Shown in pieces: positions 25,692 through 61,220 of a stretch of 64,000 bases of DNA (positions are counted from its first letter, which is position 1; every line of letters starts with the position of its first letter). Source of the stretch: Ignavibacteria bacterium. GTDB lineage: Bacteria > Bacteroidota > Ignavibacteria > UBA10030. The position numbers and the translations under genes are program-made. The notes beneath the pieces are model-generated. The model worked only from the letters and a program-made list of their open reading frames with translations. It was not told the DNA's origin and did not search any database. The DNA is taken from assembly GCA_016873805.1 (NCBI GenBank), contig VGVZ01000008.1, positions 2,592 through 66,591 of the forward strand, in the 5' to 3' direction.

Positions 25692-26747
25692 TTGAAGGGG
25701 AAGGACACAATGAAGCTGTCTGATTTCAAATATCCGCTTCCACGGAATCTCATTGCGAAGTATCCGGCGCAGCCGCGCGATCGCTCGCGGCTGCTGGTGC
25801 TGAACAGGCGCGACGAATCCTTCGAGGACAAGAAGTTCTCCGATATCGCGAGCTATTTTTCGAAAGGGGACTGCCTCGTGGTCAATGAAACCCGTGTGTT
25901 TCAGGCGCGGCTCTTCGGGAAGAAGGAAAAGACGAATGCCAAAATCGAGGTGTTCCTCCTGCGCGAACTGAACGCAGAAGAAAACATCTGGGACGTCATC
26001 GTTGATCCGGCCCGAAAGGTCCGCATCGGAAACAAGATCTTCTTTGATGACGGCAAGTTATGGTGTGAGGTGATCGACAACACGACGTCGCGGGGGAGGA
26101 CTGTTCGGTTCAACCATCGGGGTGATTTCTTCAAGATCATCGAGCGGATCGGGATGACCCCGTTGCCGTACTACATCAAGCGAGAGCCGACGGCAAAGGA
26201 CAAAGCGGCGTACCAGACTGTCTATGCGCGTGTGCTCGGAGCCGTTGCGGCACCGACGGCGGGTCTCCATTTCACCAAACCACTCCTCAGGAAAATCCAG
26301 GCGAAAGGAGTCAAAGTTGTGCCGGTTCTCCTGCACGTCGGATTGGGCTCGTTCAGGGCCGTGGAGGTCGAAGATCTCACCAAGCATAAGATGGATTCGG
26401 AGTACTACGAGATCTCCCCTGGAGCAGCGGACATCGTGAACAAGACGATCGACACGAGGCACAATGTGTTCGTGGTTGGAACAAGTACGTGCCGGGCGCT
26501 GGAGTCGAGTGTCACGTCGGATGGACATTTGAAACCGTCGCGCGGTTGGACCGACAAGTTCATTTTCCCACCGTACGATTTCAAAATCACCGATCGACTC
26601 ATCACGAATTTTCATCTTCCGGAATCGACGTTGCTGATGCTCGTGAGTGCGTTCGCCGGTTATGACTTCACGATGCAGGCGTACAAGCGGGCCATTAAAT
26701 CATCTTATCGATTCTACAGCTATGGTGATGCTATGCTGGTTCTGTGA
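25692..26747 (+). CDS. queA: S-adenosylmethionine:tRNA ribosyltransferase-isomerase
   Basis: MKLSDFKYPLPRNLIAKYPAQPRDRSRLLVL and PTAGLHFT motifs. Alternative start at the second ATG, 25710. Confidence 0.9.
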   Translation: MKGKDTMKLSDFKYPLPRNLIAKYPAQPRDRSRLLVLNRRDESFEDKKFSDIASYFSKGDCLVVNETRVFQARLFGKKEKTNAKIEVFLLRELNAEENIWDVIVDPARKVRIGNKIFFDDGKLWCEVIDNTTSRGRTVRFNHRGDFFKIIERIGMTPLPYYIKREPTAKDKAAYQTVYARVLGAVAAPTAGLHFTKPLLRKIQAKGVKVVPVLLHVGLGSFRAVEVEDLTKHKMDSEYYEISPGAADIVNKTIDTRHNVFVVGTSTCRALESSVTSDGHLKPSRGWTDKFIFPPYDFKITDRLITNFHLPESTLLMLVSAFAGYDFTMQAYKRAIKSSYRFYSYGDAMLVL

Positions 26748-27475
26748 GGATGGCGATCATGGCGAAATCGAGGCCAAAGGTCTACGCGATCATCCCAGCC
26801 GCGGGTTCAGGCACGCGGCTGGGATCTCCCGTAAAGAAGCAGTTCGTACATCTTGGGGACCGTCCCCTGCTCGTTCATACGGTTCAGCGGTTCGAAGAGT
26901 GTGCAGAGGTTGACGAGATCGTGATTGCCGTTCCGGAAGAAACTCTCGCGGAAACCAAATCGCTGATCTCCCGATACCGTCTGCACAAAGTAAGCAAGAT
27001 CGTCACAGGGGCAGAGCGACGCCAGGGATCTGTGGAAAACGCCTTTCGCAGGATCCGGACAAAGGCGAGCGATATCGTTCTCGTGCACGATGGGGTTCGG
27101 CCTTTTATCGAACCGGCGAAAATCCGTGAAGTTGTCAACGTCTGTCGGGAATTTGACGCCGCTGCACTGGCCGTCCAACCGAAGGAGACGGTCCGCCGCT
27201 CCAACGGTGGAAGCCATTTCGAACAGACGATCGATCGGGCGGCGCTCTGGTTGATGCAAACGCCCCAGGGCTTTCGTGCCTCGATCCTGAAGCGGGCGTT
27301 CATGGCCGCCCATGCGAGTCGATACCATGCCACCGATGAGGTGGCGCTGGTCGAGCGGCTGGGCATCAAACCGCGTATCATCATCGGTTCATACGACAAT
27401 ATCAAGATTACAACGCCCGAAGATCTCGAATTGGGGTCATTGATACTGGAACGATGGAAATCACAGAGGACGTGA
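26744..27475 (+). CDS. ispD: 2-C-methyl-D-erythritol 4-phosphate cytidylyltransferase
   Basis: AIIPAAGSGTRLGSPVKKQF and VLVHDGVRPF motifs. Overlaps the queA stop. Confidence 0.87.
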   Translation: MRMAIMAKSRPKVYAIIPAAGSGTRLGSPVKKQFVHLGDRPLLVHTVQRFEECAEVDEIVIAVPEETLAETKSLISRYRLHKVSKIVTGAERRQGSVENAFRRIRTKASDIVLVHDGVRPFIEPAKIREVVNVCREFDAAALAVQPKETVRRSNGGSHFEQTIDRAALWLMQTPQGFRASILKRAFMAAHASRYHATDEVALVERLGIKPRIIIGSYDNIKITTPEDLELGSLILERWKSQRT

Positions 27476-27551
27476 CACACCTTGCATCTCGCGGGTGTTT
27501 TGGCTATTTTGGTATGAAATTGTCTGACAGGTATTGCGGCGAAGGGATTGC

Positions 27552-28232
27552 ATGGAAAATCTTCTTGTTGTTCTTATTCTCAGCTATGTCGTCGGATCGA
27601 TCCCGACAAGCATCATGCTCTCGAAGTGGTTTCACGGATTCGATATCCGTACCAAGGGGAGCGGAAATGCCGGCGGGACGAACGTCTTTCGAATCCTCGG
27701 GTGGAAAGCCGGCCTGTTCGTCGGCGTGATCGACCTCAGCAAAGGATTGATTGCCGCTACGCTGATCGCACGGCTCTTCTGGGACCCATCGCTCCCGTTC
27801 TACAACCGAACGCCGTTCGACGATTTCACCATCGTTCAAATGCTTTGCGGAGCGGCGGCGATCATCGGTCACATCTGGACCGTCTTTGCCGGGTTCCGCG
27901 GAGGAAAGGGAATCGCGACCGCCGCGGGTATGCTCGTCGGTCTCGCCCCTACAGAATTTCTGGTATCGATCCTGATCTTCGGACTCGTCATCGTTGCCTG
28001 GGGGTACGTCTCGCTGGGATCCGTCAGCGCCGCCGTGGCATTTCCGACAACTCTCTTCGTTCGACACACCGTGTTCGGCGTCCAAATCGACAGCTACAAT
28101 ACGCTCATCGTATTCAGTCTTGCAGTTGCTCTGCTTCTGATTTATTCCCATCGACAGAATATCAAGCGATTGCTTACAGGAACCGAGAATAGGATCTCGC
28201 GGTTCAACAAGAGACGATCTGTCAATCCATAA
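27552..28232 (+). CDS. plsY: Glycerol-3-phosphate acyltransferase PlsY (acyl-phosphate dependent)
   Basis: LILSYVVGSIPTS, GSGNAGGTNVFR and GHIWTVFAGFRGGKGIATAAG motifs. The ORF track starts at TTG 27534; the ATG at 27552 is favoured. The overlapping 27548..28192 frame is an Arg-rich artefact. Confidence 0.85.
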   Translation: MENLLVVLILSYVVGSIPTSIMLSKWFHGFDIRTKGSGNAGGTNVFRILGWKAGLFVGVIDLSKGLIAATLIARLFWDPSLPFYNRTPFDDFTIVQMLCGAAAIIGHIWTVFAGFRGGKGIATAAGMLVGLAPTEFLVSILIFGLVIVAWGYVSLGSVSAAVAFPTTLFVRHTVFGVQIDSYNTLIVFSLAVALLLIYSHRQNIKRLLTGTENRISRFNKRRSVNP

Positions 28233-28342
28233 GGCTTAGCATCACTCCCGTGAACCCGTACACACCGTACGGGTTCATTGCGTTCTTCCCCACGCGCCCG
28301 AATCTGTATCGGATGCGCGCCTTTCGCTGGAGAACACAATCT

Positions 28343-29338
28343 ATGAACATTGCCGTCCTTGGTGCGGGAAGCTGGGGAACAACCCTGGCGCTGTTGCTCA
28401 TCGAGAAGGGATATGATGTCCGTCTCTGGGAGTACCACACGGACAATGTCAACGTCATGCGCGAGACACGGGAGAACGTTGCATTCCTCCCCGGTATTCT
28501 CTTGCCTGAGCGACTCCTCGTCACCAACGACATCGATGAGGCATGCCGATCCGCCGGCATGCTGGTGACGGCGGTCCCGTCTCAACACCTACGCTCTGTT
28601 CTCAGCCATCTCTCCACGAAGAAGCTGAGTGAGACAATCATCTGCAATGTCGCAAAGGGAATCGAGACTGAGTCACTCATGACGATGACGGAGGTCATCG
28701 AGGATTCTCTTCCGCAATGCCGCAAGGATAACCTTGCCGTTCTCTCGGGACCAAGCCATGCCGAGGAAGTCTCCAAGCGCATCCCCACCGCAATCGTTGC
28801 AGCAAGCGTCAAGAGCAGGACTGCCAAGATCGTTCAAGACGTCTTCTTGACTCCGTACTTTCGTGTGTACGTGAACGAAGATCTCAGAGGAGTGGAACTG
28901 GGCGGATCGATCAAGAACGTCATCGCTGTCGCGGCTGGAATCAGTGACGGTGCGGGTTTTGGCGATAACACCAAAGCCGCGATCATGACGCGGGGCATCT
29001 ATGAGATCACCCGACTGGGGGTCAAGATGGGGGCACAGCCACGAACGTTTGCCGGATTATCAGGAATCGGAGATCTCATCGTGACGTGCATGAGCAAACA
29101 CAGTCGCAACCGATACGTTGGCGAACAGGTGGGGGCGGGTAAGCCCCTGCAAGAGGTCCTCAAGAGCATGGTGATGATCGCTGAAGGAGTCCCGACGACA
29201 AAATCGGTACATGCCCTTTCACAGAAACTCGGTGTTGAAATGCCGATCGCGGGGGCCGTCTATCAGGTTCTCTTCGAGGGAAGAAATCCGCATGACGCAA
29301 CCGAAGATCTCATGACGAGAGACGCGAAAGGGGAATAG
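28343..29338 (+). CDS. gpsA: NAD(P)H-dependent glycerol-3-phosphate dehydrogenase
   Basis: MNIAVLGAGSWGTALA Rossmann N-terminus and the GpsA C-terminal domain. The start is set at the ATG at 28343 rather than the ORF-track start 28250. Confidence 0.9.
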   Translation: MNIAVLGAGSWGTTLALLLIEKGYDVRLWEYHTDNVNVMRETRENVAFLPGILLPERLLVTNDIDEACRSAGMLVTAVPSQHLRSVLSHLSTKKLSETIICNVAKGIETESLMTMTEVIEDSLPQCRKDNLAVLSGPSHAEEVSKRIPTAIVAASVKSRTAKIVQDVFLTPYFRVYVNEDLRGVELGGSIKNVIAVAAGISDGAGFGDNTKAAIMTRGIYEITRLGVKMGAQPRTFAGLSGIGDLIVTCMSKHSRNRYVGEQVGAGKPLQEVLKSMVMIAEGVPTTKSVHALSQKLGVEMPIAGAVYQVLFEGRNPHDATEDLMTRDAKGE

Positions 29339-29453
29339 CCGTCTGCGTGCCAAACCACGCCGTTGATGTTTGAGTCTCTTTCCACTTCTTGCGTCCCGTT
29401 TTCCGCGTCGCCACCTTCCTACCTTGCTTATCCCTGAGCTTTTGAGTATTTTT

Positions 29454-30137
29454 GTGACACATCTAGCAGAAATCCACAATATCTGTCCAATTCTCGTGAT
29501 TTCGTATCTCTTATTCTTCTTGGGCGGGTATCTCCCCGGCTCATTTCCGACAGCCTATCTTCTCGTCCGAAAGTGGGCGAATCTTGACATTCGCTCCGAG
29601 GGGAGTGGAAATGTCGGTGGTTACAACACGTACAGGGTCACCGGTTCTTCCCGCATGGGGACCGTTGTGGGGCTTATCGACGGTGCGAAGGGCTTGATCG
29701 CGGTCGTGGGGGCCCTGTTGGTCGGGGGAGATTTCTGGCATGTCGCGTTGGCGCTGATTGGGGCGATCGTCGGTCACAATTATTCGGTGTGGCTAAAGTT
29801 CCGAGGCGGACGCGGTCTCGCGACGGCCGCTGGGGGTGTCCTGCCGATCGGAGTGATGTACGGCGTCCATTGGTGCATCGTCTGGATTGTCGCGAAATCT
29901 CTGGGTCGGGGAATTCTCACGGCAAACGTATTCGCCGTACTGCTTGCTCCTCTCCTCGTCTACCTCACGCCCGACAGCGTCCTCAGGTTCTTCATGACAA
30001 GCAACGTGCCGCTGGCTGATTACCGACTGCTGAGCGTTTTGCTTAGTGTCGTGCTTCTGATGGGCCATGTGAACGGCATAAAAGAGGTCGTTGCCGACCT
30101 CAAAGGAGTTCAGCCGGAAATCGAGAATCCGGAATGA
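29454..30137 (+). CDS. Second, divergent PlsY-family glycerol-3-phosphate acyltransferase paralogue
   Basis: ISYLLFFLGGYLPGSFPTAYLL, GSGNVGGYNTYR and GHNYSVWLKFRGGRGLATAAG motifs parallel the PlsY motifs but with substitutions (GGYN for GGTN, GGRG for GGKG). No ATG start. Candidate starts are GTG 29454 and GTG 29496; the ORF track uses TTG 29370. Confidence 0.65.
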   Translation: MTHLAEIHNICPILVISYLLFFLGGYLPGSFPTAYLLVRKWANLDIRSEGSGNVGGYNTYRVTGSSRMGTVVGLIDGAKGLIAVVGALLVGGDFWHVALALIGAIVGHNYSVWLKFRGGRGLATAAGGVLPIGVMYGVHWCIVWIVAKSLGRGILTANVFAVLLAPLLVYLTPDSVLRFFMTSNVPLADYRLLSVLLSVVLLMGHVNGIKEVVADLKGVQPEIENPE

Positions 30138-30143
30138 GATGCT

Positions 30144-35772: not shown

Positions 35773-35782
35773 GGAATAGAGG

Positions 35783-46772: not shown

Positions 46773-47021
46773 GTGCCAACTCCGAATCAGCTGATGATTT
46801 ATATTGTCCCGGGGAAGTGCGATTTCTGCGGCTGCTGTGTCGGCGTCTGCCCCGAAGATGCCATCGAATTGATGGAGTCGAAGATTTCCATCATCGAAGA
46901 ACGCTGCACCAACTGCAAAAAGTGTGTTTGGGCGTGTCCATGGGAGGTCATCGAATTTCATCGCGATGGAGTCGCCCATCTCCCCAAAGAACTAAGCTCT
47001 CTACCGAATGTGCGCGCATGA
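46773..47021 (+). CDS. 2x[4Fe-4S] ferredoxin
   Basis: Two C-x2-C-x2-C-x3-CP motifs (CDFCGCCVGVCP and CTNCKKCVWACP) in 82 aa. The stop overlaps the start of the downstream geranylgeranyl reductase gene (ATGA at 47018-47021). Confidence 0.7.
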   Translation: MPTPNQLMIYIVPGKCDFCGCCVGVCPEDAIELMESKISIIEERCTNCKKCVWACPWEVIEFHRDGVAHLPKELSSLPNVRA

Positions 47022-48184
47022 AACCCAAATATGATGTGATCGTTGTCGGAGCCGGACCCGCGGGATCAACGGCGGCTCGCTCTGTTGCCTCGGGGGGAGC
47101 ATCTGTTCTGGTGCTGGAAAAAGACCGCGATGTCGGGTACCCCGTTCGATGTGGAGAAGCTGTCAGTCACGAAGGAGTCGTCCAATTCATCGATCCCGAT
47201 CCGCGTTGGATTGCCTCGACCGTCACACGATTCAAACTGGTTGCCCCGAACGGGAAGGAGGTCGTTCCGCGACTCGATGGAACGGGCTACGTTCTCGAGC
47301 GACGGATGTTCGACTACGAGCTCGCCAAGTTGGCTGCTCGCGCCGGGGCCGACATCATTACAAAAGCCTACGTCTACGATCTGCTGAGGAATGGAAATGA
47401 GGTCGTCGGCGTCAGGACGCTCATCGATGATAGGAAGATTGACATCTCCGGAGCGATCATCGTGGCTGCCGATGGCGTCGAGAGTCGCGTGGGAAAATGG
47501 ATCGGCATCGACACGACGTGTCACATCCGGGACATGGAAAGTTGTGCGCAGATGACGATCTCGGGCATCGAAATTGACGAAGATATTCTGGAGTTCTATT
47601 TCGGAGACGATGTGGCACCGGGGGGATATCTCTGGGTCTTCCCCAAGGGGAGAGAAAGTGCGAATGTCGGCATCGGAATCAATGTGCAGAGTGCGAAGAA
47701 CCGATCGGCGATTCGATTCCTCACCGACTTTGTCGAGAAGAAGTATCCGAAGGCCGCGGTTCTGACACGGATTGCCGGAGGTGTGCCGTGTGCCAGAACG
47801 TGCGACACGATCGTCAAAGAGAATGTGATGCTTGTGGGTGATGCCGCACGCCAGGTGAATCCGCTCTCGGGGGGAGGTATTATCAGCGGCATGATCGGCG
47901 GGATGATCGCCGGCGAAGTTGCCGTCGAGGCGCTACAGAAGAAGGATCTTTCGCATCTGAATGAATATGAGCGTCGCTGGCATCGACGACTTGGCTGGCG
48001 TCATGAAGTGTTCTATCGCATCAAGGAAGCAATCGGGGAGTTTTCGGACGAAACGTTGAACAAGATTGCCGACAGCGCGTTGAAACTCCCGCAAAACAAA
48101 CAGACTCTGGGAGGGATTTTTCGCACGGCGCTCTGGAATCAGCCCTCACTTCTCATCGATGTCGCCAAAGTGTTCATTTCTTGA
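47018..48184 (+). CDS. Geranylgeranyl reductase family FAD-dependent oxidoreductase
   Basis: YDVIVVGAGPAGSTAARS dinucleotide-binding motif, the RCGEAVS and GDAAR...P.SG.GI motifs typical of the GGR/ChlP family, and about 390 aa length. The start is the ATG at 47018 within the longer ORF-track frame. Confidence 0.78.
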   Translation: MKPKYDVIVVGAGPAGSTAARSVASGGASVLVLEKDRDVGYPVRCGEAVSHEGVVQFIDPDPRWIASTVTRFKLVAPNGKEVVPRLDGTGYVLERRMFDYELAKLAARAGADIITKAYVYDLLRNGNEVVGVRTLIDDRKIDISGAIIVAADGVESRVGKWIGIDTTCHIRDMESCAQMTISGIEIDEDILEFYFGDDVAPGGYLWVFPKGRESANVGIGINVQSAKNRSAIRFLTDFVEKKYPKAAVLTRIAGGVPCARTCDTIVKENVMLVGDAARQVNPLSGGGIISGMIGGMIAGEVAVEALQKKDLSHLNEYERRWHRRLGWRHEVFYRIKEAIGEFSDETLNKIADSALKLPQNKQTLGGIFRTALWNQPSLLIDVAKVFIS

Positions 48185-50119: not shown

Positions 50120-50127
50120 GTGAACCC

Positions 50128-52043: not shown

Positions 52044-52044
52044 C

Positions 52045-52488: not shown

Positions 52489-52518
52489 ATCGTCGTCCTC
52501 GTCAATAGGGAGGTTCCT

Positions 52519-53472
52519 GTGACCGAACATCCATTCAAATCTCTCCCGACCCGCATCGCCGTGGCCGCCGTGGGGATCCCTCTCATTCTCTGGCTGACGT
52601 ACGAAGGTGGCTACCACTTTTTTTCCCTGGTCACATTGATCTCAACACTATCGCTCTACGAGTTCTATGTGTTGCAGGAACGACGAGGGAGCTATCCTCT
52701 CAAGACTTTGGGATTGGTGGCTGGCGTTCTTGTGGTGGGGGCGTTTGTTTATCCGAGATTCCATCTCCAGCTCTTCAGGTTTCTGGATGAACGCGGGGTG
52801 CGCCTCGCGATGTTCTCTCCCCTACAATTTCTCCTTGTCGTCCTCGTCCTCTTTCTTCTTGTTATCCTCTTGGTCGAACTGTTTCGGTCGAAGGGTTCTC
52901 CTTCCCATAATCTCGGCGCAACGATTCTTGGCGTCATGATCATCCCCCTCTTTTTTGGCTGCCTGATTGGATTACGGGAAGTGTTTCTGTACGGATTCCC
53001 TGTCCACAAATTCCTCGACGCGTTTCCCATCGGGGTCGAACAACGAATCGTGATGGATCGCTGGGGAGCCTTCACTGTGATTTCTCTCTTTGCCACCATT
53101 TGGATTTGCGATACAGCCGCGTACTTCGTTGGATCGAAATTTGGAAAACATAAGTTGTTCGAGCGGGTGAGTCCGAAAAAGAGCTGGGAGGGAGCAATTG
53201 CAGGATTCATTGTCGCCGTCGCAGCGATGGTCGTCGCGCAGCAGCTGTTCCTACAATACCTCGCCGTCGTCCATGCGGTCGTGATCGGCATGATCATCGG
53301 GAGTTTTGGTCAGGTGGGGGATCTGGTGCAATCGCGATTCAAACGCGATGTGGGGGTGAAAGACTCCTCAGCAATCCTTCCGGGTCACGGGGGAGTATAC
53401 GATCGCTTCGATAGCGTGGTTTTTGTATCCCCCATTGTGTATCTTTATGTGGATTTCATCGTTCTATCGTAG
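52519..53472 (+). CDS. cdsA: Phosphatidate cytidylyltransferase (CDP-diglyceride synthase)
   Basis: C-terminal CTP_transf_1 signature (SPKKSWEGAIAGF...GDLVQSRFKRDVGVKDSSAILPGHGGVYDRFDS). GTG start with a GGGAGG Shine-Dalgarno sequence. Confidence 0.87.
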   Translation: MTEHPFKSLPTRIAVAAVGIPLILWLTYEGGYHFFSLVTLISTLSLYEFYVLQERRGSYPLKTLGLVAGVLVVGAFVYPRFHLQLFRFLDERGVRLAMFSPLQFLLVVLVLFLLVILLVELFRSKGSPSHNLGATILGVMIIPLFFGCLIGLREVFLYGFPVHKFLDAFPIGVEQRIVMDRWGAFTVISLFATIWICDTAAYFVGSKFGKHKLFERVSPKKSWEGAIAGFIVAVAAMVVAQQLFLQYLAVVHAVVIGMIIGSFGQVGDLVQSRFKRDVGVKDSSAILPGHGGVYDRFDSVVFVSPIVYLYVDFIVLS

Positions 53473-53491
53473 GAGGAGAGGTGGAAGCGGG

Positions 53492-54802: not shown

Positions 54803-56100
54803 CGATGAACACTCACAGGTTCCTCTTGTTTGCGACACTGGCACTGCTCTATTCCGGCGCCGAAGCACAAATGCGCAGAACGGTTGCGCCGTTTGAATCC
54901 GTACGGTCCCAGTCGTTCTTCTTCGATGCGATCACGTACGCCGCAGACGATTCTCAGCAATCTCATATAGATTTCTACATTCAGGTCCCGCATCAACAGT
55001 TTCGATTCGTCAAGGAGGGAGATCAGTTCGTTGCGCGCTCCGAAATCGCGATCACGTATCGACGGGAACCTGATGGGGAGTCAAAGGAAGTCGTGTGGAG
55101 CGAGGTCTTTGCCGTCCTGGAGTTCGACCAGACGACGTCACCGAAATACTATCGCCTGATGCGTCGGGGCGTCGATGTATTGCCGGGCAACTATCGGATA
55201 GAGGTCAAGTTTCAGGACCTCGAATCGCGGAAGACATCGACGATCACGCGAACGCTGCACGTCGTCGATTTTTCGCGCGATAGCGTCGGCGTGAGCGACA
55301 TCATGATTGTGAGCCGACTCTCGAATGACGGCGTTCGTTGGAACATCGTGCCGAACATATCCGCGAATATCGCCGAACATTCAGAAGGATTCTTTCTGTA
55401 CTTCGAAATCTACAACCGTACGACTCTCGATTCGGTCACTCTCATCACCACGATCCTCAATGCAAAACAGGAGGTTGTCTACACTGCCAAACAGGAGGAG
55501 CTCCTCAAGGGGAGTAGGACTCAGAGTTTTGTCCGCGTGGTTGATTTTCTCCCCGATCCGGGTGAGTACCGCGTAATCATCGAGGCCCAGCCGCGCGACT
55601 CCGCCATCGGAGCAACGGTATCGACAACCTCGCGTTCGTTTGTGATGCGCCCGAGCGATCTGCCGATCACGATTCAGGATATCGACAAAGCCGTTGAGCA
55701 GTTGATGTACATCGCGCGCGAATCTGAAATGCAGCACATGCGGAACGCCAGGGAGCCGGAGGAAAAACGATCACGCCTCCTCGAGTTCTGGAACAAGCGT
55801 GATCCCGATCCGCAGACACCCCGGAATGAATTGATGGAAGAGTACTATTCGCGCGTTGAGTATGCCAACAAGAACTTCAGTCACTACGTCGAGGGGTGGC
55901 GGACCGACATGGGAATGGTCTATATCCGATTCGGCCCTCCCGAAAATGTCGACAGACATCCCTTCACCACGAACACGCGCCCGTACGAAATCTGGTACTA
56001 TTATCAACTGAATCGGGAGTTCATTTTTGTTGATGAGACCGGGTTCGGCGACTATCGCCTTCGATATCCCACAACGGATTTGTGGGGGAGAATACGCTGA
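54799..56100 (+). CDS. GWxTD domain-containing secreted protein
   Basis: Signal peptide (LLFATLALLYSGAEAQ). The C-terminal GWRTDMGMVYIRFGPPENV...YEIWYY matches the GWxTD domain (TIGR04514-like). ATGA overlap with the rimO stop. Confidence 0.7.
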   Translation: MTMNTHRFLLFATLALLYSGAEAQMRRTVAPFESVRSQSFFFDAITYAADDSQQSHIDFYIQVPHQQFRFVKEGDQFVARSEIAITYRREPDGESKEVVWSEVFAVLEFDQTTSPKYYRLMRRGVDVLPGNYRIEVKFQDLESRKTSTITRTLHVVDFSRDSVGVSDIMIVSRLSNDGVRWNIVPNISANIAEHSEGFFLYFEIYNRTTLDSVTLITTILNAKQEVVYTAKQEELLKGSRTQSFVRVVDFLPDPGEYRVIIEAQPRDSAIGATVSTTSRSFVMRPSDLPITIQDIDKAVEQLMYIARESEMQHMRNAREPEEKRSRLLEFWNKRDPDPQTPRNELMEEYYSRVEYANKNFSHYVEGWRTDMGMVYIRFGPPENVDRHPFTTNTRPYEIWYYYQLNREFIFVDETGFGDYRLRYPTTDLWGRIR

Positions 56101-57902
56101 GGTACAAGTTCGATCTTGCGCATAGAAGAGCCAGAGCCGAATTTCCCTCGCCTGGCTTTTTCCGTTTTTCACTTCTTGTCGCACTCGTTGTGTCATCAAT
56201 CTCGATCACGCGAGCCCAGCACGGGCTTGAAGTGAGGAGCGTTCACATCCATGGACTGCGTGCCATCACAGATTCGGACGCGCTCTTCGCATGGAAGACC
56301 CAAACCGGCACACCCTTTCGAACACCCGACTTCGATTCCGATCTTCAACTCCTGATTTCCAAACTGCGCTACGAAGGATACACCCGAGCCCGGATCGACT
56401 CCGTCACGGTCGATACGGTCGACAAATCGACTCAGATCGCACTTCATCTTTGGCTTCACGAGGGGGAGCGCGCACTGATCGAGTCAATCGAGCTCATCGG
56501 GGATTCCGTGAGCGGCGAAGGATACCGGCGGTGGTTCGCGGAGTCGGCAGCGGGAACAGAATTCAGCGCGCGTCGGCTCGAATCGGAAATCGAGCAATTG
56601 CTTCGCTTCCTGGAGAAGGAGGGATACGCACTCGCCGGCGTCCGCATTGCCGACATCAGGTACGATCACACGGGCGAGCGAAGTACCGTTCGGATCGCCC
56701 TCCGGATCGATCGAGGAAATCGGATTCGGATACGCGGCCTGCGTATCACCGGCAACGCGCGCACGGCGGACAATGTCATAGTGCGTGAGGCGAGAATCGG
56801 CGAGAATCAACTCTTCGAACCTGATCTCCCTCTCCAGGTCAAGAGACGACTTGAGCGGCTGCAGCTGTTTTCCTCTGTTTCGATGCCTGAGGTCCATCTG
56901 CGCCCCGATAGCACGGTGGACCTCCGCGTGGAAGTTCAAGAGGGGAACACAAATCATTTCGACGGCATACTGGGCTATGTTCCCGATCCGCGCCCCGGAC
57001 GCAAGGGATTCTTCACCGGACTGATCGAGGTGAAGTTCCGGAATCTGCTAGGGACCGGAAGAAGACTCGCCGCGCGGTGGCATCGGCTGGACAATCATTC
57101 ACAAGAAATCGATCTCCGGTATCTTGAACCATGGATTGCCTCTCTCCCGCTGGACGGCGAGATTCATCTTGGTCAGCGTATCCAGGACTCAACCTACGTC
57201 CGCCGTCAGTATGGAATGAACCTTTCCGTGATGTTTTCGCAAGATCTCTCGGTGAGTACCTCGATGGAACGGACAGAGGTTGTTCCGGCGGAACGTCTCC
57301 GTCACCTCCAGGGAGAAGGGACGGAGTTGTTCCTTGGTCTCTCCATCCACTACGATTCGAAGGACGATCCGGTCACGCCGCGTGCCGGAGCCCTTTATCA
57401 AACGTCGTACGAAGCAGGCCGAAAGTCGGTTCGACAGCCGGACGGATCGACGGCGCGTGCGTGGACCGACCGGATCACTCTCGATCTCGAGTATTATTTC
57501 TCTCCGGTCGATCGCCAGGTCATCATGGCGGCGCTTCACGGACGAGACTACCGGGCACCGGACATGGCCGCCGGCGATCTGTTTCGGCTAGGGGGAACCA
57601 ACACCTTACGTGGATATCGAGAATCGCAGTTCCTCGGTTCGCGGCTCGCCTGGATCAATCTTGAATATCGCTTGCTCATCGGAGGGCGATCATATGTCGC
57701 CGGATTCGTTGACGGGGGGTATATCTATTCACCTCCGGCTCCACGTTCGGGCCTGAGCCGGCAGGAATTGACCCGACTCGGGTATGGGGTTGGGGTGAGG
57801 CTGGATTCGGCCATCGGACTTCTGCGCATCGGATTGGCATTCGGCAAGGGCGATTCCTTCAACACCGCAAAACTGCATTTTGGACTCATCAATGAATTCT
57901 GA
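56082..57902 (+). CDS. Omp85/BamA/TamA-family outer-membrane protein (POTRA domains plus 16-strand beta-barrel), shorter than canonical BamA
   Basis: Signal peptide (FFRFSLLVALVVSSISITRAQ), POTRA-like repeats, and an Omp85 barrel with the C-terminal aromatic signature (LHFGLINEF). No ATG start. The ORF-track GTG 56082 overlaps the upstream gene; TTG 56115 is an alternative. Confidence 0.72.
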   Translation: MGENTLRYKFDLAHRRARAEFPSPGFFRFSLLVALVVSSISITRAQHGLEVRSVHIHGLRAITDSDALFAWKTQTGTPFRTPDFDSDLQLLISKLRYEGYTRARIDSVTVDTVDKSTQIALHLWLHEGERALIESIELIGDSVSGEGYRRWFAESAAGTEFSARRLESEIEQLLRFLEKEGYALAGVRIADIRYDHTGERSTVRIALRIDRGNRIRIRGLRITGNARTADNVIVREARIGENQLFEPDLPLQVKRRLERLQLFSSVSMPEVHLRPDSTVDLRVEVQEGNTNHFDGILGYVPDPRPGRKGFFTGLIEVKFRNLLGTGRRLAARWHRLDNHSQEIDLRYLEPWIASLPLDGEIHLGQRIQDSTYVRRQYGMNLSVMFSQDLSVSTSMERTEVVPAERLRHLQGEGTELFLGLSIHYDSKDDPVTPRAGALYQTSYEAGRKSVRQPDGSTARAWTDRITLDLEYYFSPVDRQVIMAALHGRDYRAPDMAAGDLFRLGGTNTLRGYRESQFLGSRLAWINLEYRLLIGGRSYVAGFVDGGYIYSPPAPRSGLSRQELTRLGYGVGVRLDSAIGLLRIGLAFGKGDSFNTAKLHFGLINEF

Positions 57903-58734
57903 CAAGCTGCAGGCGTACCTTCAACTGCTCCGCCCCCTGAACGTTCTCATCGCCGTTCTCTCCATTGCTGCCGCGTCAATTCTGGCCTCGCACCAATCAT
58001 TCGACTGGATCGCCATCGTTCTCGCATCGCTCGCGGGCGGACTGATCGCCGGCGGAGCGAATGCGATCAACGACTACTTCGATATCGAGATCGATCGCGT
58101 GAACAAACCGAATCGTCCGCTGCCTCGAGGAGCACTGCGTCCGGCCGACGCTTACGCGCTCTGGCTCGCGGTTTCGATCACCGGCGTCTTCGTCAACGTT
58201 CTTCTCAACGGGGCGGCGTTGATCATCGCGTTTTCGTCAGTCGTAATCCTGTATCTCTACAGCGCCGTCTACAAGCGATCGATCCTGGTGGGGAACGTTA
58301 TCGTGGCGTTCATGACGGGATTGGCGTTCATCTACGGCGGCATCGTGGTCGGTCATGTCGAACGTGCGATTATTCCAGCACTGTTCGCTTTCCAGATCAA
58401 CTTCGCCAGGGAGCTTGTCAAGGATGTCGAGGATATCGAGGGGGATGCAAAGGAACACGCCGGGACTTTTGCGGTGAAGCATGGTCCGCGCCCTGCACTC
58501 CTTCTCGCCACAATAATCCTTCTTGCATTGATCGCAACGACAGCGTATCCTTATCTGGCGAGTATCTATTCGCTCGACTATCTGGTGATTGTTGCGATCG
58601 TTGATGTGGTGCTCCTCTTTGTCGTGATTTCGATGTGGAGAGATCAAACTCCAAAAAATCTCGGTCGTCTCAGCGCGCTCTTGAAATGGAATATGCTTCT
58701 GGGACTCGTCGCCATCTATCTCGGAGCGGGATGA
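57892..58734 (+). CDS. UbiA-family prenyltransferase whose signature matches the DGGGP synthase / ChlG / homogentisate-prenyltransferase clade
   Basis: NAINDYFDIEIDRVNKPNRPLPRGAL matches N-DYFD-EIDRiN-P-RPiP-G of archaeal digeranylgeranylglyceryl-phosphate synthase and ChlG/HPT. It is not the MenA/UbiA/CyoE pattern. 8-9 TM helices. The start is the ATG at 57892, overlapping the Omp85 gene end by 11 nt. Confidence 0.75.
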   Translation: MNSDKLQAYLQLLRPLNVLIAVLSIAAASILASHQSFDWIAIVLASLAGGLIAGGANAINDYFDIEIDRVNKPNRPLPRGALRPADAYALWLAVSITGVFVNVLLNGAALIIAFSSVVILYLYSAVYKRSILVGNVIVAFMTGLAFIYGGIVVGHVERAIIPALFAFQINFARELVKDVEDIEGDAKEHAGTFAVKHGPRPALLLATIILLALIATTAYPYLASIYSLDYLVIVAIVDVVLLFVVISMWRDQTPKNLGRLSALLKWNMLLGLVAIYLGAG

Positions 58735-59393
58735 ATCGTATGCCGTTGAGAACGATGAAATCCAACACGGTGTTGCCGGACAATTTCGATTGGTTTGCCG
58801 TAGAGTATCGATATCGAAAACAGGAAATTGATATGATCGCAGGAGTCGATGAGGCCGGACGAGGACCGTTGGCGGGTCCGGTTGTTGCCGCCGCCGTCGT
58901 CTTTGGTTCCGGCGTGCGGATCGAAGGAATCAACGATTCAAAAAAGCTCGCTGAACGGCGCCGGATACACCTGTATGAGGAGATTCTTTCAACGGCCCTC
59001 GATGTGGGGCTAGGAATCGTGGACAACGATGAGATTGATCGGATCAATATTCTGCAGGCGTCGATTCTCGCAATGCGAAAAGCCGTTGATGGTCTTTCCG
59101 CGATTCCCGACGTAATTCTCGCCGACGGTAATTCATTCAGACATGACAGCATCAGGTTTGAGAACATCATCGGGGGGGACGGAAAAAGCTTTTCGATCGC
59201 CGCGGCATCGATTGTGGCAAAAGTGACACGTGACCGGATGATGTGCGAATTCCACGCGAAGTACCCGGACTACGGCTTCGCACGACATAAGGGGTACGGG
59301 ACGCCTGAGCACCTTGCCGCGATCAAACAACACGGATTGTGCAGCATTCACCGTCGCAGCTTTCGATGCGGCGATACGGCGAATTATCTTTGA
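58731..59393 (+). CDS. rnhB: Ribonuclease HII
   Basis: IAGVDEAGRGPLAGPVVAAAVV active-site motif. The start is set at the ATG at 58731, overlapping the UbiA stop (ATGA). An N-terminal extension of about 35 aa precedes the conserved core. Confidence 0.85.
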   Translation: MNRMPLRTMKSNTVLPDNFDWFAVEYRYRKQEIDMIAGVDEAGRGPLAGPVVAAAVVFGSGVRIEGINDSKKLAERRRIHLYEEILSTALDVGLGIVDNDEIDRINILQASILAMRKAVDGLSAIPDVILADGNSFRHDSIRFENIIGGDGKSFSIAAASIVAKVTRDRMMCEFHAKYPDYGFARHKGYGTPEHLAAIKQHGLCSIHRRSFRCGDTANYL

Positions 59394-59410
59394 GCAATGG
59401 GGGGGAGTTC

Positions 59411-59785
59411 ATGGCTCTCCATATCGGTGGAGGCTGGAGAAAGCAGCGCGGGAACCGGGGAGAAGATCTCGCGCTTGATTATCTGAGAAGCCGTGGATAT
59501 CATGTGCTCGCACGGAACTACCGGTTCGAACGCGGTGAAATCGACTTGATTGCCGAGGATGGGGAGGTGATCGTCTTCGTGGAGGTCAAGACGAGACGGT
59601 CAATGAAGTACGGTCAACCGGAGCACTCGGTGACGCTTCGGAAGCAAAACCAGATACGCAAGGTTGCCGAAGGATATCTCCACGAGCACGAAATGCGAAA
59701 TCGACCATGCCGTTTTGATGTCCTCGCCATCACCATGACGTACCACGATCCGACAATCATCCACTACAGAAATGCCTTCTACTAA
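59411..59785 (+). CDS. yraN: YraN-family (UPF0102) endonuclease-like protein
   Basis: GEDLALDYLRSRGYHVLARNYRFERGEIDLIAEDGEVIVFVEVKTR matches UPF0102. The rnhB-yraN adjacency is widely conserved. The start is set at the ATG at 59411. Confidence 0.8.
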   Translation: MALHIGGGWRKQRGNRGEDLALDYLRSRGYHVLARNYRFERGEIDLIAEDGEVIVFVEVKTRRSMKYGQPEHSVTLRKQNQIRKVAEGYLHEHEMRNRPCRFDVLAITMTYHDPTIIHYRNAFY

Positions 59786-59791
59786 CCTCGC

Positions 59792-61219
59792 ATGAAAGAA
59801 CAACTTCATCACCTTGGCCTGTACACGGATTTCTATGAATTCACGATGGCGCAGGCGTATTTCCTCACGGGAAAGCACCAGACCCATGCGTCGTTCGACT
59901 ATTTCTACCGCCAGAATCCGTTTGATGGAGGGTTTGTCATCTTTGCCGGTCTGAGCGATCTCGTTGCACTTCTCGGGCAGTTCCGTTTCCATGTAGATGA
60001 CATTGAGTATTTGCGGAGTCAGGGTCTCCATCCCGAGTTCCTGAAGTATCTCAGGAATTACCGCTTTGAAGGAACGATTCATTCGGTCCGTGAAGGGGAG
60101 GTGGTATTTCCGTACGAGCCGATTGTTCGGGTCGAGGGAAACGTCGTCGAGACCCAGCTCATCGAGACCATCCTTCTCAATGTGCTGAACTTCGAATCGC
60201 TCATTGCTACGAAAGCGGCAAGGCTTCGACTGGCGGCGGGGAACCGGCGGCTTGTCGATTTTGGGCTCAGGCGCGCCCAGGGATTTGCGGGAATGCAGGC
60301 GAGCAAGGCGGCCTTTGTCGGCGGCGTTGATGCCACATCCAATGTCTTTGCCGGATTTCACCATGGTTTGGAGCTTTCAGGTACACAAGCGCATTCGTGG
60401 ATTCAATGCTTCGATCACGAACTGGAGGCTTTCCGACGATTCGCCGAGATCTTCCCCGAACGTTGCTTTCTCCTCGTTGATACGTACAACACCCTCGAAA
60501 GCGGGTTGCCGAACGCCATCACCGTCGCCCGGGAACTTGATGCGAAGGGATACCGGCTGGCCGGTGTTCGCCTCGATAGCGGCGATCTGGCATACTTGAG
60601 CAAACGCGCGCGGGCAATGCTCAACGACGCCGGCTTTCCCTATGTCAAGATCGTGGCATCGAACCAGCTCGATGAGTACCTGATTCGAAGCTTGATTGAG
60701 CAGGATGCCCCGATCGACGCGTTCGGTGTGGGAACCCGGCTGGTGACCGCCGAAGGAACTCCTTCGCTGGACGGAGTCTATAAGCTTGCCTCGTTCGACG
60801 GGAGACCCCGACTGAAGTTCTCCGAGAACTTTGCAAAGATCACGCTGCCGGGTGTGAAAGATATTGTTCGGTTTGTGGATGGGCAGGGTGGTTTCTATGC
60901 TGATGGAATTGTGCTGGACGGTGAGAAGAAGTTTGAGATGATTCACCACCCTTTGTTCACACAGAAGAAGAGCAGCGTTCAGGAGAGGGAGAGCCAGTCA
61001 ATCATGGTCCGATCAATCGAGCACGGCAATCCTCTTCCTCACCCTTCCATTCGCGAATGCGCGGCGTATGCACAACAGAGACTCTCGCGGCTCTCACCCG
61101 AACATAAGCGATTTGAAAACCCGCACGTCTACAAGGTTGGGCTCAGCCCGGCCCTTCTCCAGCTGCGAGCGTCCTTGACAAATGGGGTCGTCAACAACGC
61201 CCAACCTGAGAGGGATTGA
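59792..61219 (+). CDS. pncB: Nicotinate phosphoribosyltransferase
   Basis: LYTDFYEFTMAQAYFLTGKHQ N-terminus, the GTQAHSW and FGVGTRL motifs. Confidence 0.87.
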   Translation: MKEQLHHLGLYTDFYEFTMAQAYFLTGKHQTHASFDYFYRQNPFDGGFVIFAGLSDLVALLGQFRFHVDDIEYLRSQGLHPEFLKYLRNYRFEGTIHSVREGEVVFPYEPIVRVEGNVVETQLIETILLNVLNFESLIATKAARLRLAAGNRRLVDFGLRRAQGFAGMQASKAAFVGGVDATSNVFAGFHHGLELSGTQAHSWIQCFDHELEAFRRFAEIFPERCFLLVDTYNTLESGLPNAITVARELDAKGYRLAGVRLDSGDLAYLSKRARAMLNDAGFPYVKIVASNQLDEYLIRSLIEQDAPIDAFGVGTRLVTAEGTPSLDGVYKLASFDGRPRLKFSENFAKITLPGVKDIVRFVDGQGGFYADGIVLDGEKKFEMIHHPLFTQKKSSVQERESQSIMVRSIEHGNPLPHPSIRECAAYAQQRLSRLSPEHKRFENPHVYKVGLSPALLQLRASLTNGVVNNAQPERD

Positions 61220-61220
61220 G

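What the first reader, a model, noticed from the sequence alone, without database searches (positions are those of the whole stretch)
57892..58734. UbiA prenyltransferase with an archaeal DGGGP-synthase-type signature, inside a bacterial lipid and housekeeping operon
The second aspartate-rich region reads NDYFDIEIDRVNKPNRPLPRG. This motif class (N-DYFD-EID-N-P-RP-P-G) is shared by archaeal digeranylgeranylglyceryl-phosphate synthase, chlorophyll/bacteriochlorophyll synthase and homogentisate prenyltransferases. It does not match MenA, UbiA or CyoE. The rest of the window has FCB-group hallmarks (T9SS tail, GWxTD, DUF3276) and no photosynthesis genes, so an ether-lipid-type, DGGGPS-like role is plausible. 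A ferredoxin-coupled geranylgeranyl reductase lies 10 kb upstream. Homologues of archaeal ether-lipid enzymes have been reported in FCB-group bacteria, but the products are largely uncharacterised. The gene is translationally coupled, with an 11-nt overlap upstream and an ATGA overlap downstream, between an Omp85 protein and rnhB-yraN. This implies constitutive expression. No G1P dehydrogenase (EgsA) or GGGPS (PcrB-like) is present in this window.
Basis: partly seen in the sequence, partly recalled or inferred. Interest (0 to 1): 0.65.

Follow-up and report, generated by a model that had tools for sequence, protein, structure and literature searches.

The report
Archaeal-type lipid prenyltransferase gene in Ignavibacteria
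The gene is real and is a bacterial copy of the archaeal enzyme that adds the second isoprenoid chain to ether lipids, but this family is already described and routinely annotated across this group of bacteria, so the finding is correct but ordinary.

Summary
The ORF at 57892-58734 (+), 280 aa, is real, and its overlaps with both neighbours are as described. It is a UbiA-superfamily membrane prenyltransferase. Its best match by a wide margin is archaeal digeranylgeranylglyceryl-phosphate synthase (DGGGPS): M. jannaschii DGGGPS structure E=1e-43 over the full length, NCBIfam DGGGPS-type models 222-237 bits against ChlG 88, CyoE 61, UbiA 41 and MenA 36. All eight mutationally defined catalytic or positioning residues are conserved. 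The AF2 model (pLDDT 92) hits 6M31 first.

The window comes from an Ignavibacteriales bacterium. The order CdsA-RimO-GWxTD-Omp85-DGGGPS-RnhB-YraN is conserved across Ignavibacteria, Kryptonia and Chlorobiota. An archaeal-type geranylgeranyl reductase heads the same gene string. No GGGPS or G1P dehydrogenase is in the window.

In Poribacteria relatives the homologue sits beside GGR and GGGPS, which supports an ether-lipid role for the bacterial clade.

The phenomenon is published (Coleman 2019; Villanueva 2020), and homologues are already named DGGGPS by NCBI and JGI.

Verdict: a new member of a known kind, of low interest. The in vivo product remains unproven.

The parts
57892..58734 (+). DGGGPS-like UbiA-superfamily prenyltransferase, 280 aa, predicted N-terminal amphipathic helix plus about 9 TM helices
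   Evidence: Pfam PF01040 E=7.5e-43. NCBIfam NF009523 236.6 bits and NF009521 221.5 bits. PDB 6m31 E=1.2e-43. AF2 pLDDT 91.9, with Foldseek top hit 6m31 at TM 0.76.
58069..58131 (+). First Asp-rich motif and following loop, N60-D61-x2-D64-x3-D68...R75-P76-x-P78-x-G80.
   Evidence: Maps to Mj N62/D66/D70. Invariant in 38 FCB homologues and conserved in both the bacterial and archaeal sets.
58258..58275 (+). Motif 2, Y123-x4-K128 (Mj Y125/K130). Positions the glycerol backbone of the acceptor in MjDGGGPS.
   Evidence: Y and K invariant in 67 bacterial and 12 archaeal sequences. Residue roles are from review PMC9385802.
58423..58446 (+). Second Asp-rich motif, D178-x2-D181-x3-D185 (Mj D180/D183/D187)
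47018..48184 (+). Geranylgeranyl reductase (FAD-dependent), archaeal lipid-reductase-like. First gene of the co-directional string.
   Evidence: Pfam GGR_cat E=2.9e-27. TIGR02032 scores 235.6, above its cutoff of 158.8. Best equivalog model is digeranylgeranylglycerophospholipid reductase at 259 bits (below cutoff), against BchP/ChlP 141 and MenJ 74. The gene call of 388 aa is.
52519..53472 (+). CdsA (bacterial CDP-diglyceride synthase), the candidate activator of the diether phosphatidate analogue
   Evidence: Pfam CTP_transf_1 E=7.7e-54. Within 10 kb upstream in 10 of 14 Ignavibacteria loci. Bacterial CdsA can replace archaeal CarS, as cited in PMC7852524.
54799..56100 (+). GWxTD-domain protein, a conserved neighbour
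   Evidence: Pfam PF20094 E=7e-25; synteny
56082..57902 (+). Omp85-family outer-membrane protein (short BamA/TamA-like, 606 aa). Its stop overlaps the DGGGPS-like start by 11 nt.
   Evidence: Pfam Omp85 and POTRA. TIGR03303 scores 172.9, below its cutoff of 297. Upstream in 15 of 20 Ignavibacteria loci.
58731..59393 (+). RNase HII (rnhB), with an ATGA overlap to the DGGGPS-like stop
   Evidence: Pfam RNase_HII E=1.8e-40. Directly downstream in 25 of 25 Ignavibacteria loci.
59411..59785 (+). YraN/UPF0102 endonuclease-like protein
   Evidence: Pfam UPF0102 E=3.4e-30; gene call
26744..30134 (+). Context showing a normal bacterial lipid and MEP pathway: IspD, PlsY, GpsA (G3P dehydrogenase), second PlsY-like paralogue

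Best explanation
Shown:
- The gene encodes a Mg2+-dependent integral-membrane prenyltransferase of the DGGGPS branch of the UbiA superfamily.
- It is carried by an Ignavibacteriales bacterium.
- It has been inherited with a fixed envelope and housekeeping gene neighbourhood.

Inferred mechanism:
1. The two Asp-rich motifs (D64/D68 and D178/D181/D185) bind Mg2+ and the diphosphate of a polyprenyl diphosphate, most likely C20 GGPP made from the MEP pathway, and ionise it.
2. N60 and Y123 position the free hydroxyl of a mono-prenyl-glyceryl phosphate (GGGP), so a second ether bond forms. GGGP would come from a PcrB-family GGGPS encoded elsewhere in the genome.
3. The product, a digeranylgeranylglyceryl phosphate, is then probably activated by the bacterial CdsA in the same gene string and saturated by the archaeal-type geranylgeranyl reductase at the head of the string. 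This would give a minor archaeol-like phospholipid alongside ordinary PlsY/GpsA-derived ester lipids.

The glycerol stereochemistry (G1P or G3P) is unknown, because no G1P dehydrogenase is seen.
For: Family placement:
- NCBIfam DGGGPS-type models score 237, 222 and 170 bits, against ChlG 88, CyoE 61, UbiA 41 and MenA 36.
- PDB by sequence: MjDGGGPS E=1.2e-43 over 276 of 280 residues, with the next hit ChlG at E=4e-8.
- A profile of 38 homologues scores DGGGPS 216 bits, against ChlG 74, AfUbiA 42, UBIAD1 36 and ApUbiA 32.
- The AF2 model (pLDDT 91.9) hits 6M31 first in Foldseek.

Active site:
- Mj N62, D66, D70, Y125, K130, D180, D183 and D187 are all conserved, and F148 of the GGPP tunnel is kept. 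Roles are from PMC9385802.
- 43 positions are conserved and identical in 67 bacterial and 12 archaeal sequences. Only 7 are clade-specific, all conservative changes.

Relatives grade without a break from Ignavibacteriales (62%) to methanogen DGGGPS (33-37%).

Functional linkage in the bacterial clade:
- Poribacteria carry DGGGPS-like, GGR and GGGPS in one cluster.
- Melioribacteraceae have GGR immediately adjacent.
- In this window GGR is the first gene and CdsA the seventh of a string with gaps of 52 nt or less (coordinates).

Literature:
- The Cloacimonetes GGGPS and DGGGPS pair yields PG-archaeol in E. coli (PMC7852524).
- Both genes occur together in Ignavibacteriae genomes.
- GGGPS is listed for Ignavibacteria bacterium CG1_02_37_35. 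My locus L050 from the same MAG carries the DGGGPS-like gene in the same synteny.

The GC content of the gene equals that of its surroundings, so there is no sign of recent transfer.
Against: - Scores fall below NCBIfam equivalog cutoffs (236.6 < 269; 221.5 < 296).
- No GGGPS, G1P dehydrogenase, GGPP synthase or CarS lies in the 64-kb window. The rest of this genome could not be searched.
- My profile search for GGGPS returned only Poribacteria-like proteins in the visible list, so it did not show an Ignavibacteriales GGGPS directly.
- At the GGPP-tunnel position Mj S171, archaea have A or S while the bacterial clade has I, F or Y (I169 here). Mj I29 is A27 here. Donor chain length or geometry may therefore differ.
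- No enzyme of the Ignavibacteria clade has been assayed, and I found no report of archaeol-type lipids in a cultured FCB bacterium.
- A crude NJ tree with three distant outgroups did not recover a stable root.
Confidence: 0.6

Rival explanations
1. Same fold and chemistry but a different acceptor. The enzyme would prenylate some other membrane hydroxyl compound, for example a 1-acyl- or 1-alkyl-glycerol phosphate to give a mixed acyl/prenyl lipid, or a non-glycerol envelope lipid linked to the adjacent Omp85/GWxTD genes. In that case 'DGGGPS' is only a family label.
For: - UbiA subfamilies diverge mainly by acceptor (PMC9385802).
- Scores are below the equivalog cutoffs.
- Bulky residues replace A/S at the tunnel position Mj S171 in the whole bacterial clade.
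- No GGGPS lies within 10 kb in any Ignavibacteria locus or in the 64-kb window.
- The tight, lineage-wide adjacency is to Omp85, not to isoprenoid genes.
- Most FCB lineages lack G1PDH (PMC6431249).
Against: - The residues that position the glycerol backbone of GGGP (N60, Y123, K128) and all motif residues are invariant in both bacteria and archaea.
- Poribacteria members of the same clade are clustered with GGGPS and GGR.
- A bacterial member from Cloacimonetes does perform the DGGGPS reaction.
- GGGPS co-occurs in Ignavibacteriae genomes.
Confidence: 0.27
2. A retained but physiologically marginal or catabolic enzyme. This could be one working in reverse or salvaging environmental archaeal lipids, as Coleman et al. 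speculated for FCB lineages without G1PDH.
For: - The suggestion is made in PMC6431249.
- No G1PDH is in the window.
- I found no reports of archaeal-type lipids from cultured FCB bacteria.
Against: - Catalytic residues are strictly conserved over 67 bacterial sequences.
- The position inside a housekeeping gene string is fixed across Ignavibacteria, Kryptonia and Chlorobiota. This argues for a constantly selected function.
- Prenyl-diphosphate ionisation chemistry is not readily reversible (established UbiA/prenyltransferase mechanism; this is my inference).
Confidence: 0.08
3. It is a chlorophyll or bacteriochlorophyll synthase, homogentisate prenyltransferase, MenA, UbiA/MqnP or heme O synthase.
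For: - The NDxxDxxxD...RPxPxG loop resembles that of ChlG (alignment).
- Ignavibacteria are relatives of the phototrophic Chlorobia.
Against: - ChlG 87.8 bits (cutoff 313); BchG/ChlG TIGR01476 68 (cutoff 212); HPT 48.9; CyoE 61.4; UbiA 41; MenA 35.8; MqnP 36.9. All are far below cutoff and far below the DGGGPS models.
- No photosynthesis or quinone-pathway genes were found in the window.
Confidence: 0.02

Closest known systems
Methanocaldococcus jannaschii DGGGPS (EC 2.5.1.42; PDB 6M31/6M34/7BPU, Ren et al. 2020)
   Same: - Full-length collinear alignment, 32% identity, E=1.2e-43.
- Same length (280 against 283 aa) and same predicted helix layout. Foldseek top hit at TM 0.76.
- N62, D66, D70, Y125, K130, D180, D183, D187 and F148 are all conserved.
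   Different: - The host is a diderm bacterium with LPS, PlsY, GpsA and CdsA genes.
- Tunnel-2 residues differ: I29 to A27 and S171 to I169 (bulky in the whole bacterial clade).
- There are 7 clade-specific conservative substitutions.
- No neighbouring archaeal lipid genes other than GGR.
- Activity is untested.
Ca. Cloacimonetes (NIOZ-UU3) DGGGP synthase and the FCB-wide DGGGPS homologues (Villanueva et al. 2020, PMC7852524; Coleman et al. 2019, PMC6431249)
   Same: - Bacterial (FCB) DGGGPS homologue in a genome that also encodes the bacterial ester-lipid pathway, the MEP pathway, an archaeal-like GGR and CdsA, but no CarS or G1PDH. This is the same gene inventory as described for Cloacimonetes.
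- Ignavibacteriae are explicitly listed among lineages with both genes.
   Different: - In Cloacimonetes the gene is co-localised with GGGPS. Here, and in all Ignavibacteria loci examined, it is not. It sits instead between an Omp85 gene and rnhB.
- I could not obtain the Cloacimonetes sequence, so identity to it is not measured.
NCBIfam NF009523 (PRK12884, 'prenyltransferase') and NF009521 (PRK12882, geranylgeranylglycerol-phosphate geranylgeranyltransferase)
   Same: These are the best-scoring curated models, aligned end to end (residues 4-279 to model positions 2-277 of 279).
   Different: Scores of 236.6 and 221.5 bits are below the equivalog cutoffs of 269 and 296. By NCBI's own rule the protein is therefore not an equivalog of the seed (archaeal) proteins.
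Chlorophyll a synthase ChlG (PDB 9SAU)
   Same: UbiA fold. The first Asp-rich loop is similar (NDFYDRDIDAINEPYRPIPSG against NDYFDIEIDRVNKPNRPLPRG).
   Different: Only 24% identity and E=4e-8. The ChlG models score 38-88 bits against cutoffs of 313-436. There is no photosynthetic context.

Membership tests
UbiA prenyltransferase superfamily (PF01040) | Pfam model above the gathering threshold | tested here: met
   147.1 bits against a cutoff of 34.2, E=7.5e-43, covering residues 22-266
UbiA prenyltransferase superfamily (PF01040) | Two Asp-rich Mg2+/diphosphate motifs (NDxxDxxxD and DxxDxxxD) on cytoplasmic loops | tested here: met
   N60-D61-x2-D64-x3-D68 and D178-x2-D181-x3-D185. Invariant in homologues.
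UbiA prenyltransferase superfamily (PF01040) | All-helical polytopic membrane fold of about 9 TM helices | tested here: met
   AF2 pLDDT 91.9, all-helical. Foldseek hits 6M31, 4OD5, 4TQ3 and 8DJK with TM 0.66-0.78. This is a predicted model, not an experimental structure.
DGGGPS (EC 2.5.1.42) family | Scores best against DGGGPS profiles and structures rather than other UbiA subfamilies | tested here: met
   NCBIfam 237, 222 and 170 bits against 88 or less for every other subfamily. PDB by sequence 153 bits against 37. Profile 216 bits against 74.
DGGGPS (EC 2.5.1.42) family | Reaches the curated NCBIfam equivalog cutoff | tested here: not met
   NF009523 236.6 < 269; NF009521 221.5 < 296; NF009522 170.2 < 353. 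So this is a DGGGPS-like clade member, not a certified equivalog.
DGGGPS (EC 2.5.1.42) family | Catalytic and acceptor-positioning residues defined by mutagenesis of MjDGGGPS (N62, D66, D70, Y125, K130, D180, D183, D187) | tested here: met
   All eight are conserved, as N60, D64, D68, Y123, K128, D178, D181 and D185. Residue list is from PMC9385802.
DGGGPS (EC 2.5.1.42) family | GGPP-tunnel (tunnel 2) lining residues I29, F148, S171 | tested here: inconclusive
   F146 is conserved. I29 is A27 and S171 is I169. Archaea have A or S at the last position while bacteria have I, F or Y.
DGGGPS (EC 2.5.1.42) family | Phylogenetic grouping with archaeal DGGGPS to the exclusion of other UbiA subfamilies | tested here: inconclusive
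   With ChlG as the only outgroup, 67 bacterial sequences form one clade (bootstrap 72) next to the archaeal DGGGPS. With ChlG, AfUbiA and UBIAD1 together, the crude NJ root is unstable, with 22% support. Mean distances do separate the groups: 1.44 between archaea and bacteria, against 1.97-2.7 to the outgroups. Published ML trees place FCB homologues with DGGGPS.
DGGGPS (EC 2.5.1.42) family | Catalyses GGGP + GGPP -> DGGGP | not testable with these tools
   Needs an enzyme assay or heterologous expression.
Archaeal-type ether-lipid pathway in bacteria (Villanueva 2020) | GGGPS (PcrB family) in the same genome | not testable with these tools
   None in the window or within 10 kb in any Ignavibacteria locus. 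The literature lists GGGPS in I. album and in Ignavibacteria bacterium CG1_02_37_35, the same MAG as my L050.
Archaeal-type ether-lipid pathway in bacteria (Villanueva 2020) | Geranylgeranyl reductase of archaeal lipid-reductase type | tested here: met
   47018-48184: TIGR02032 scores 235.6, above its cutoff of 158.8. The DGGGPL-reductase models score higher than BchP/ChlP or MenJ.
Archaeal-type ether-lipid pathway in bacteria (Villanueva 2020) | G1P dehydrogenase (EgsA/AraM) | tested here: not met
   No Fe-ADH/G1PDH-type ORF in the window. It is also absent from most FCB lineages per PMC6431249. Genome-wide status is unknown.
Chlorophyll/bacteriochlorophyll synthase (ChlG/BchG) | Reaches TIGR01476, TIGR02056 or NF005742 cutoffs | tested here: not met
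   68 < 212; 37.6 < 436; 87.8 < 313
MenA / UbiA / MqnP / heme O synthase | Reaches the respective NCBIfam cutoffs | tested here: not met
   MenA 35.8 < 346; UbiA 41 < 275; MqnP 36.9 < 375; CyoE 61.4 < 210

The most novel reading that the evidence does not exclude
Ignavibacteria, Kryptonia and Chlorobiota relatives have kept the DGGGPS-like gene welded between an Omp85-family outer-membrane protein gene and rnhB. CdsA sits a few genes upstream, and here an archaeal-type reductase sits at the head of the string.

The reading not excluded by my evidence is that these diderm bacteria make saturated diether isoprenoid glycerophospholipids constitutively. That would be a natural 'mixed membrane', possibly on a G3P backbone and possibly destined for the cell envelope or outer membrane. 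It would not be a rare or conditional product.
Probability: 0.2. Interest if true: 0.6.

Novelty: new member of a known kind. Interest (0 to 1): 0.22.

Why it matters
Bacterial homologues of the two archaeal ether-bond enzymes bear on the 'lipid divide' and on whether mixed archaeal/bacterial membranes exist in nature.

This window adds one more Ignavibacteriales example. It also shows that in this lineage the gene is embedded in a deeply conserved housekeeping and envelope gene string, not in an isoprenoid-lipid island. That argues for long vertical inheritance and a constantly selected role.

It does not change the state of the question. The family, its FCB-wide distribution and its likely function are already published and annotated. 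What is missing is in vivo lipid evidence from a cultured member, and sequence analysis cannot supply that.

Tried and rejected
1. **Looking for this organism's GGGPS.**
   - A PcrB-seeded HMM over all six-frame ORFs of the window and 83 fetched loci found GGGPS only in 5 Poribacteria and 2 archaeal loci.
   - A profile search of the 5.8-billion-protein set returned 8000 hits, but the visible top 120 were all Poribacteria-like. It therefore said nothing about Ignavibacteriales.
Genome-wide co-occurrence for this MAG could not be tested, and I fell back on the literature.
2. **Promoter and terminator scan of 44.5-63.9 kb.** Counts were at chance (11 against 8.7±2.7; 21 against 18.3±4.5). This gives no evidence for or against a single operon. 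FCB promoters are not covered by that consensus.
3. **NJ tree with three distant outgroups.** UBIAD1 attached to long bacterial branches, and the expected split had only 22% bootstrap support. I rejected it as a rooting test.
4. **'Ferredoxin-coupled' GGR.** No Fer4 domain and no room for a ferredoxin gene. The N-terminal 67 residues of the long ORF are an over-extension.
5. **Recent horizontal transfer.** GC content across the gene (0.54-0.57) equals the window mean of 0.554, and the gene tree follows taxonomy.
6. **Literature from 2021 onward.** I searched for lipid evidence in cultured FCB bacteria and found none in the held library.


Full report
**Observation.** The ORF is real. The longest frame runs 57880-58734 from a TTG. 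The ATG at 57892 gives a 280-aa protein whose M1 is invariant across 38 homologues, all of which align from residue 1.

Reading the DNA confirms both overlaps:
- The ATG at 57892-57894 lies inside the last codons of the upstream Omp85 gene (stop at 57900-57902), an 11-nt overlap.
- The TGA at 58732-58734 overlaps the ATG at 58731 of rnhB (ATGA).

The quoted peptide NDYFDIEIDRVNKPNRPLPRG is residues 60-80. It is the first Asp-rich motif of the UbiA fold, not the second. The second is D178-x2-D181-x3-D185 at nt 58423-58446.

**What the protein is.**
- Pfam gives UbiA at E=7.5e-43.
- Among NCBIfam models, the three best are DGGGPS-type (NF009523 236.6 bits, NF009521 221.5, NF009522 170.2). Lower scores go to ChlG 87.8, BchG/ChlG 68, EboC 64.5, heme O synthase 61.4, homogentisate phytyltransferase 48.9, UbiA 41, MqnP 36.9 and MenA 35.8.
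- None of the models reaches its equivalog cutoff. By NCBI's rule this is a DGGGPS-like protein, not a certified equivalog.
- Against all PDB sequences the only strong hit is M. jannaschii DGGGPS (6M31) at E=1.2e-43 over residues 4-279. ChlG follows at 4e-8.
- A profile of 38 homologues widens the gap: 216 bits against 74, 42, 36, 32 and 22 for ChlG, AfUbiA, UBIAD1, ApUbiA and DPPR synthase.
- An AlphaFold2 model (pLDDT 91.9, all-helical) finds 6M31 and 7BPU first in Foldseek, at E=2e-16 and TM 0.76.

**Active site.** The review PMC9385802 summarises the mutagenesis of MjDGGGPS:
- N62, D66 and D70 form motif 1.
- Y125 and K130 form motif 2.
- D180, D183 and D187 form motif 3.
- I29, F148 and S171 line the GGPP tunnel.

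In the window protein these map to N60, D64, D68, Y123, K128, D178, D181 and D185, all conserved. F146 is conserved, I29 becomes A27 and S171 becomes I169.

Across 67 bacterial and 12 archaeal sequences, 43 positions are conserved and identical in both groups. Only 7 are clade-specific, and all are conservative changes. At the S171 position archaea carry A or S and bacteria carry I, F or Y. That is the one hint that the donor tunnel may differ.

**Organism and relatives.** The best are Ignavibacteriales MAGs at 62-48% identity. KSB1, Kryptonia, Calditrichota, Poribacteria and Latescibacterota follow. Bona fide methanogen DGGGPS genes appear at 33-37% with no gap in the series.

The exact protein occurs on JGI contig Ga0194113_10000438 and in two SRA assemblies. 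A sibling sample name (Ga0194112, 'M_DeepCast_400m') belongs to an Ignavibacteria MAG in my list (L008), so the source is probably a deep freshwater-lake Ignavibacteriales bacterium. That is an inference from names only.

Window neighbours are 60-76% identical to L008. GC content across the gene matches the window. In an NJ tree rooted on ChlG, the bacterial sequences form one clade (bootstrap 72) that follows taxonomy, and the window protein is sister to Ignavibacteriales L004. This argues for vertical inheritance and against recent transfer. Adding two more distant outgroups made the crude NJ root unstable, so I treat the tree test as inconclusive and rely on profile scores and the published ML trees.

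**Context in the window.** From 47018 to 61835 there are 15 co-directional genes with gaps of 52 nt or less:
1. GGR
2. Heptosyltransferase
3. DUF3108 protein
4. GSU2086-family protein
5. CPBP protease
6. B-box protein
7. CdsA
8. RimO
9. GWxTD protein
10. Omp85
11. The DGGGPS-like gene
12. RnhB
13. YraN
14. NAPRT
15. PncA

Whether they form one transcript is untested, because the consensus promoter and terminator scans were at chance.

The reductase passes the GG-reductase subfamily cutoff. It scores higher on archaeal digeranylgeranylglycerophospholipid-reductase models (259 and 177 bits) than on BchP/ChlP (141) or MenJ (74). It has no ferredoxin domain or ferredoxin neighbour.

Elsewhere the window has IspD, PlsY, GpsA, a second PlsY-like gene, LpxB and LpxK. 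This is a diderm bacterium with the ordinary ester-lipid pathway.

Pfam scans of nearly all the larger ORFs, plus a GGGPS HMM over all six-frame ORFs, found no GGGPS, G1P dehydrogenase, polyprenyl synthase, CarS or photosynthesis gene. The obvious GroEL and the truncated last ORF were not scanned.

**Synteny elsewhere.**
- RnhB lies directly downstream in 25 of 25 Ignavibacteria loci.
- Omp85 lies upstream in 15 of 20.
- CdsA lies within 10 kb in 10 of 14.
- The same order is seen in Kryptonia (2 of 2) and a Chlorobiota MAG.
- It is not seen in Calditrichota, Latescibacterota or archaea.

The arrangement persists down to 38% protein identity.

More telling for function are two other lineages. 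In three Melioribacteraceae loci a GGR gene sits immediately next to the DGGGPS-like gene. In Poribacteria the homologue is clustered with GGR and a PcrB-family GGGPS (L043, L054, L060) or with GGGPS alone (L052, L070). This ties the bacterial clade to the ether-lipid pathway through gene neighbourhood, a line of evidence separate from the sequence-similarity results.

**Comparison with the literature.**
- Coleman et al. 2019 found GGGPS and DGGGPS orthologues in all 12 FCB phyla surveyed, and G1PDH only in Fibrobacteres and Cloacimonetes.
- Villanueva et al. 2020 showed that the Cloacimonetes pair produces PG-archaeol in E. coli, that GGGPS also accepts G3P, and that bacterial CdsA can stand in for CarS. 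They list Ignavibacteriae among lineages carrying both genes in single genomes.
- Coleman's supplement lists a GGGPS from Ignavibacteria bacterium CG1_02_37_35. My locus L050 from that same MAG carries the DGGGPS-like gene in the conserved synteny.
- Homologues 48-57% identical to the window protein are already named 'geranylgeranylglycerol-phosphate geranylgeranyltransferase' by NCBI and JGI.

**Mechanism and confidence.**
- Shown: family, fold, intact catalytic apparatus, lineage, conserved context.
- Inferred: the donor is GGPP, the acceptor is GGGP from a GGGPS encoded elsewhere, CdsA activates the product, and GGR saturates it.

I put family membership in the DGGGPS-like clade at about 0.95 and the DGGGPS reaction in vivo at about 0.6. 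The main rival, at about 0.27, is the same chemistry on another acceptor. It rests on the sub-cutoff scores, the bulky tunnel residue, the lack of nearby GGGPS or G1PDH, and the odd fidelity to an Omp85 neighbour. A catabolic or relic role (about 0.08) and other UbiA subfamilies (about 0.02) are poorly supported.

**Verdict.** The finding is a new member of a known, published and routinely annotated family. It does not make the open question, what these enzymes make in vivo, more testable than it already is. Interest is low (0.22).

The most novel reading left open is constitutive synthesis of archaeol-like lipids wired into envelope biogenesis in Ignavibacteria. I rate it at about 0.2 probability.

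Noticed in passing
L043 9992-13802; L054 9965-13223; L060 9956-13088; L052 and L070 9974-12907: In Candidatus Poribacteria genomes the DGGGPS-like gene is clustered on one strand with a geranylgeranyl reductase and a PcrB-family GGGPS. In L052 and L070 a SpoU/TrmH-like gene separates it from the GGGPS instead. In L043, L054 and L060 a second UbiA-like ORF lies directly upstream. Villanueva 2020 states that bacterial GGGPS/DGGGPS co-localisation is restricted to Cloacimonetes, and its text and supplement do not mention Poribacteria.
   Followed up: partly
window 27534-30134: PlsY (PF02660, E=2.7e-52), GpsA, then a second divergent PlsY-like ORF at 29367-30134 (PF02660, E=2.8e-30). The second copy is 37% identical to the first over the N-terminal half. 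Two glycerol-phosphate acyltransferase paralogues therefore flank the G3P dehydrogenase.
   Followed up: partly
window 56082-57902 and loci L005-L046: The Omp85-family gene fused by overlap to the DGGGPS-like gene is short (606 aa) and scores below the BamA cutoff (172.9 < 297). It is a BamA/TamA-like paralogue whose adjacency to the prenyltransferase is conserved in 15 of 20 Ignavibacteria loci and also in Kryptonia, Chlorobiota and some KSB1 loci.
   Followed up: partly
window 19136-21932: A PEMT/ICMT-family membrane methyltransferase (19136-19744) lies directly upstream of LpxB (19681-20874) and LpxK (20874-21932). The long antisense ORFs at 19579-20901, 29793-31166 and 35732-36580 have no Pfam hit and are shadows of these + strand genes.
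   Followed up: partly
window 50128-51096: A GSU2086-family protein (NF052581, 400.7 bits against a cutoff of 250). It has only a weak ArgZ-like Rossmann hit in Pfam, is of unknown function, and is conserved at 69-73% identity in the same string in related Ignavibacteriales.
   Followed up: no
window 52045-52488 and 7994-8509: Two small Cys-rich proteins with similar N-terminal zinc-ribbon-like sequences (CxHCG...C.C). The first has a B-box zinc-finger Pfam hit (E=8.7e-6). The second has no Pfam hit.
   Followed up: no
window 37985-42013: A 1342-aa Sortilin/BNR-repeat protein with a C-terminal T9SS sorting-domain hit just under threshold (PF18962, 25.2 bits against 27).
   Followed up: no
L055 (URVS01000200.1, 'uncultured Mollicutes bacterium UMGS1395'): Its DGGGPS-like gene groups with Methanobrevibacter sequences in the NJ tree. 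The 3.6-kb contig is probably a mis-binned archaeal fragment.
   Followed up: no
window residue 169 (nt 58396-58398) and alignment of 79 sequences: At the GGPP-tunnel position equal to Mj S171, all 12 archaeal sequences have a small or medium residue (A, S, T or M). The bacterial clade has mostly I, F or Y. This is a candidate specificity-determining position.
   Followed up: partly
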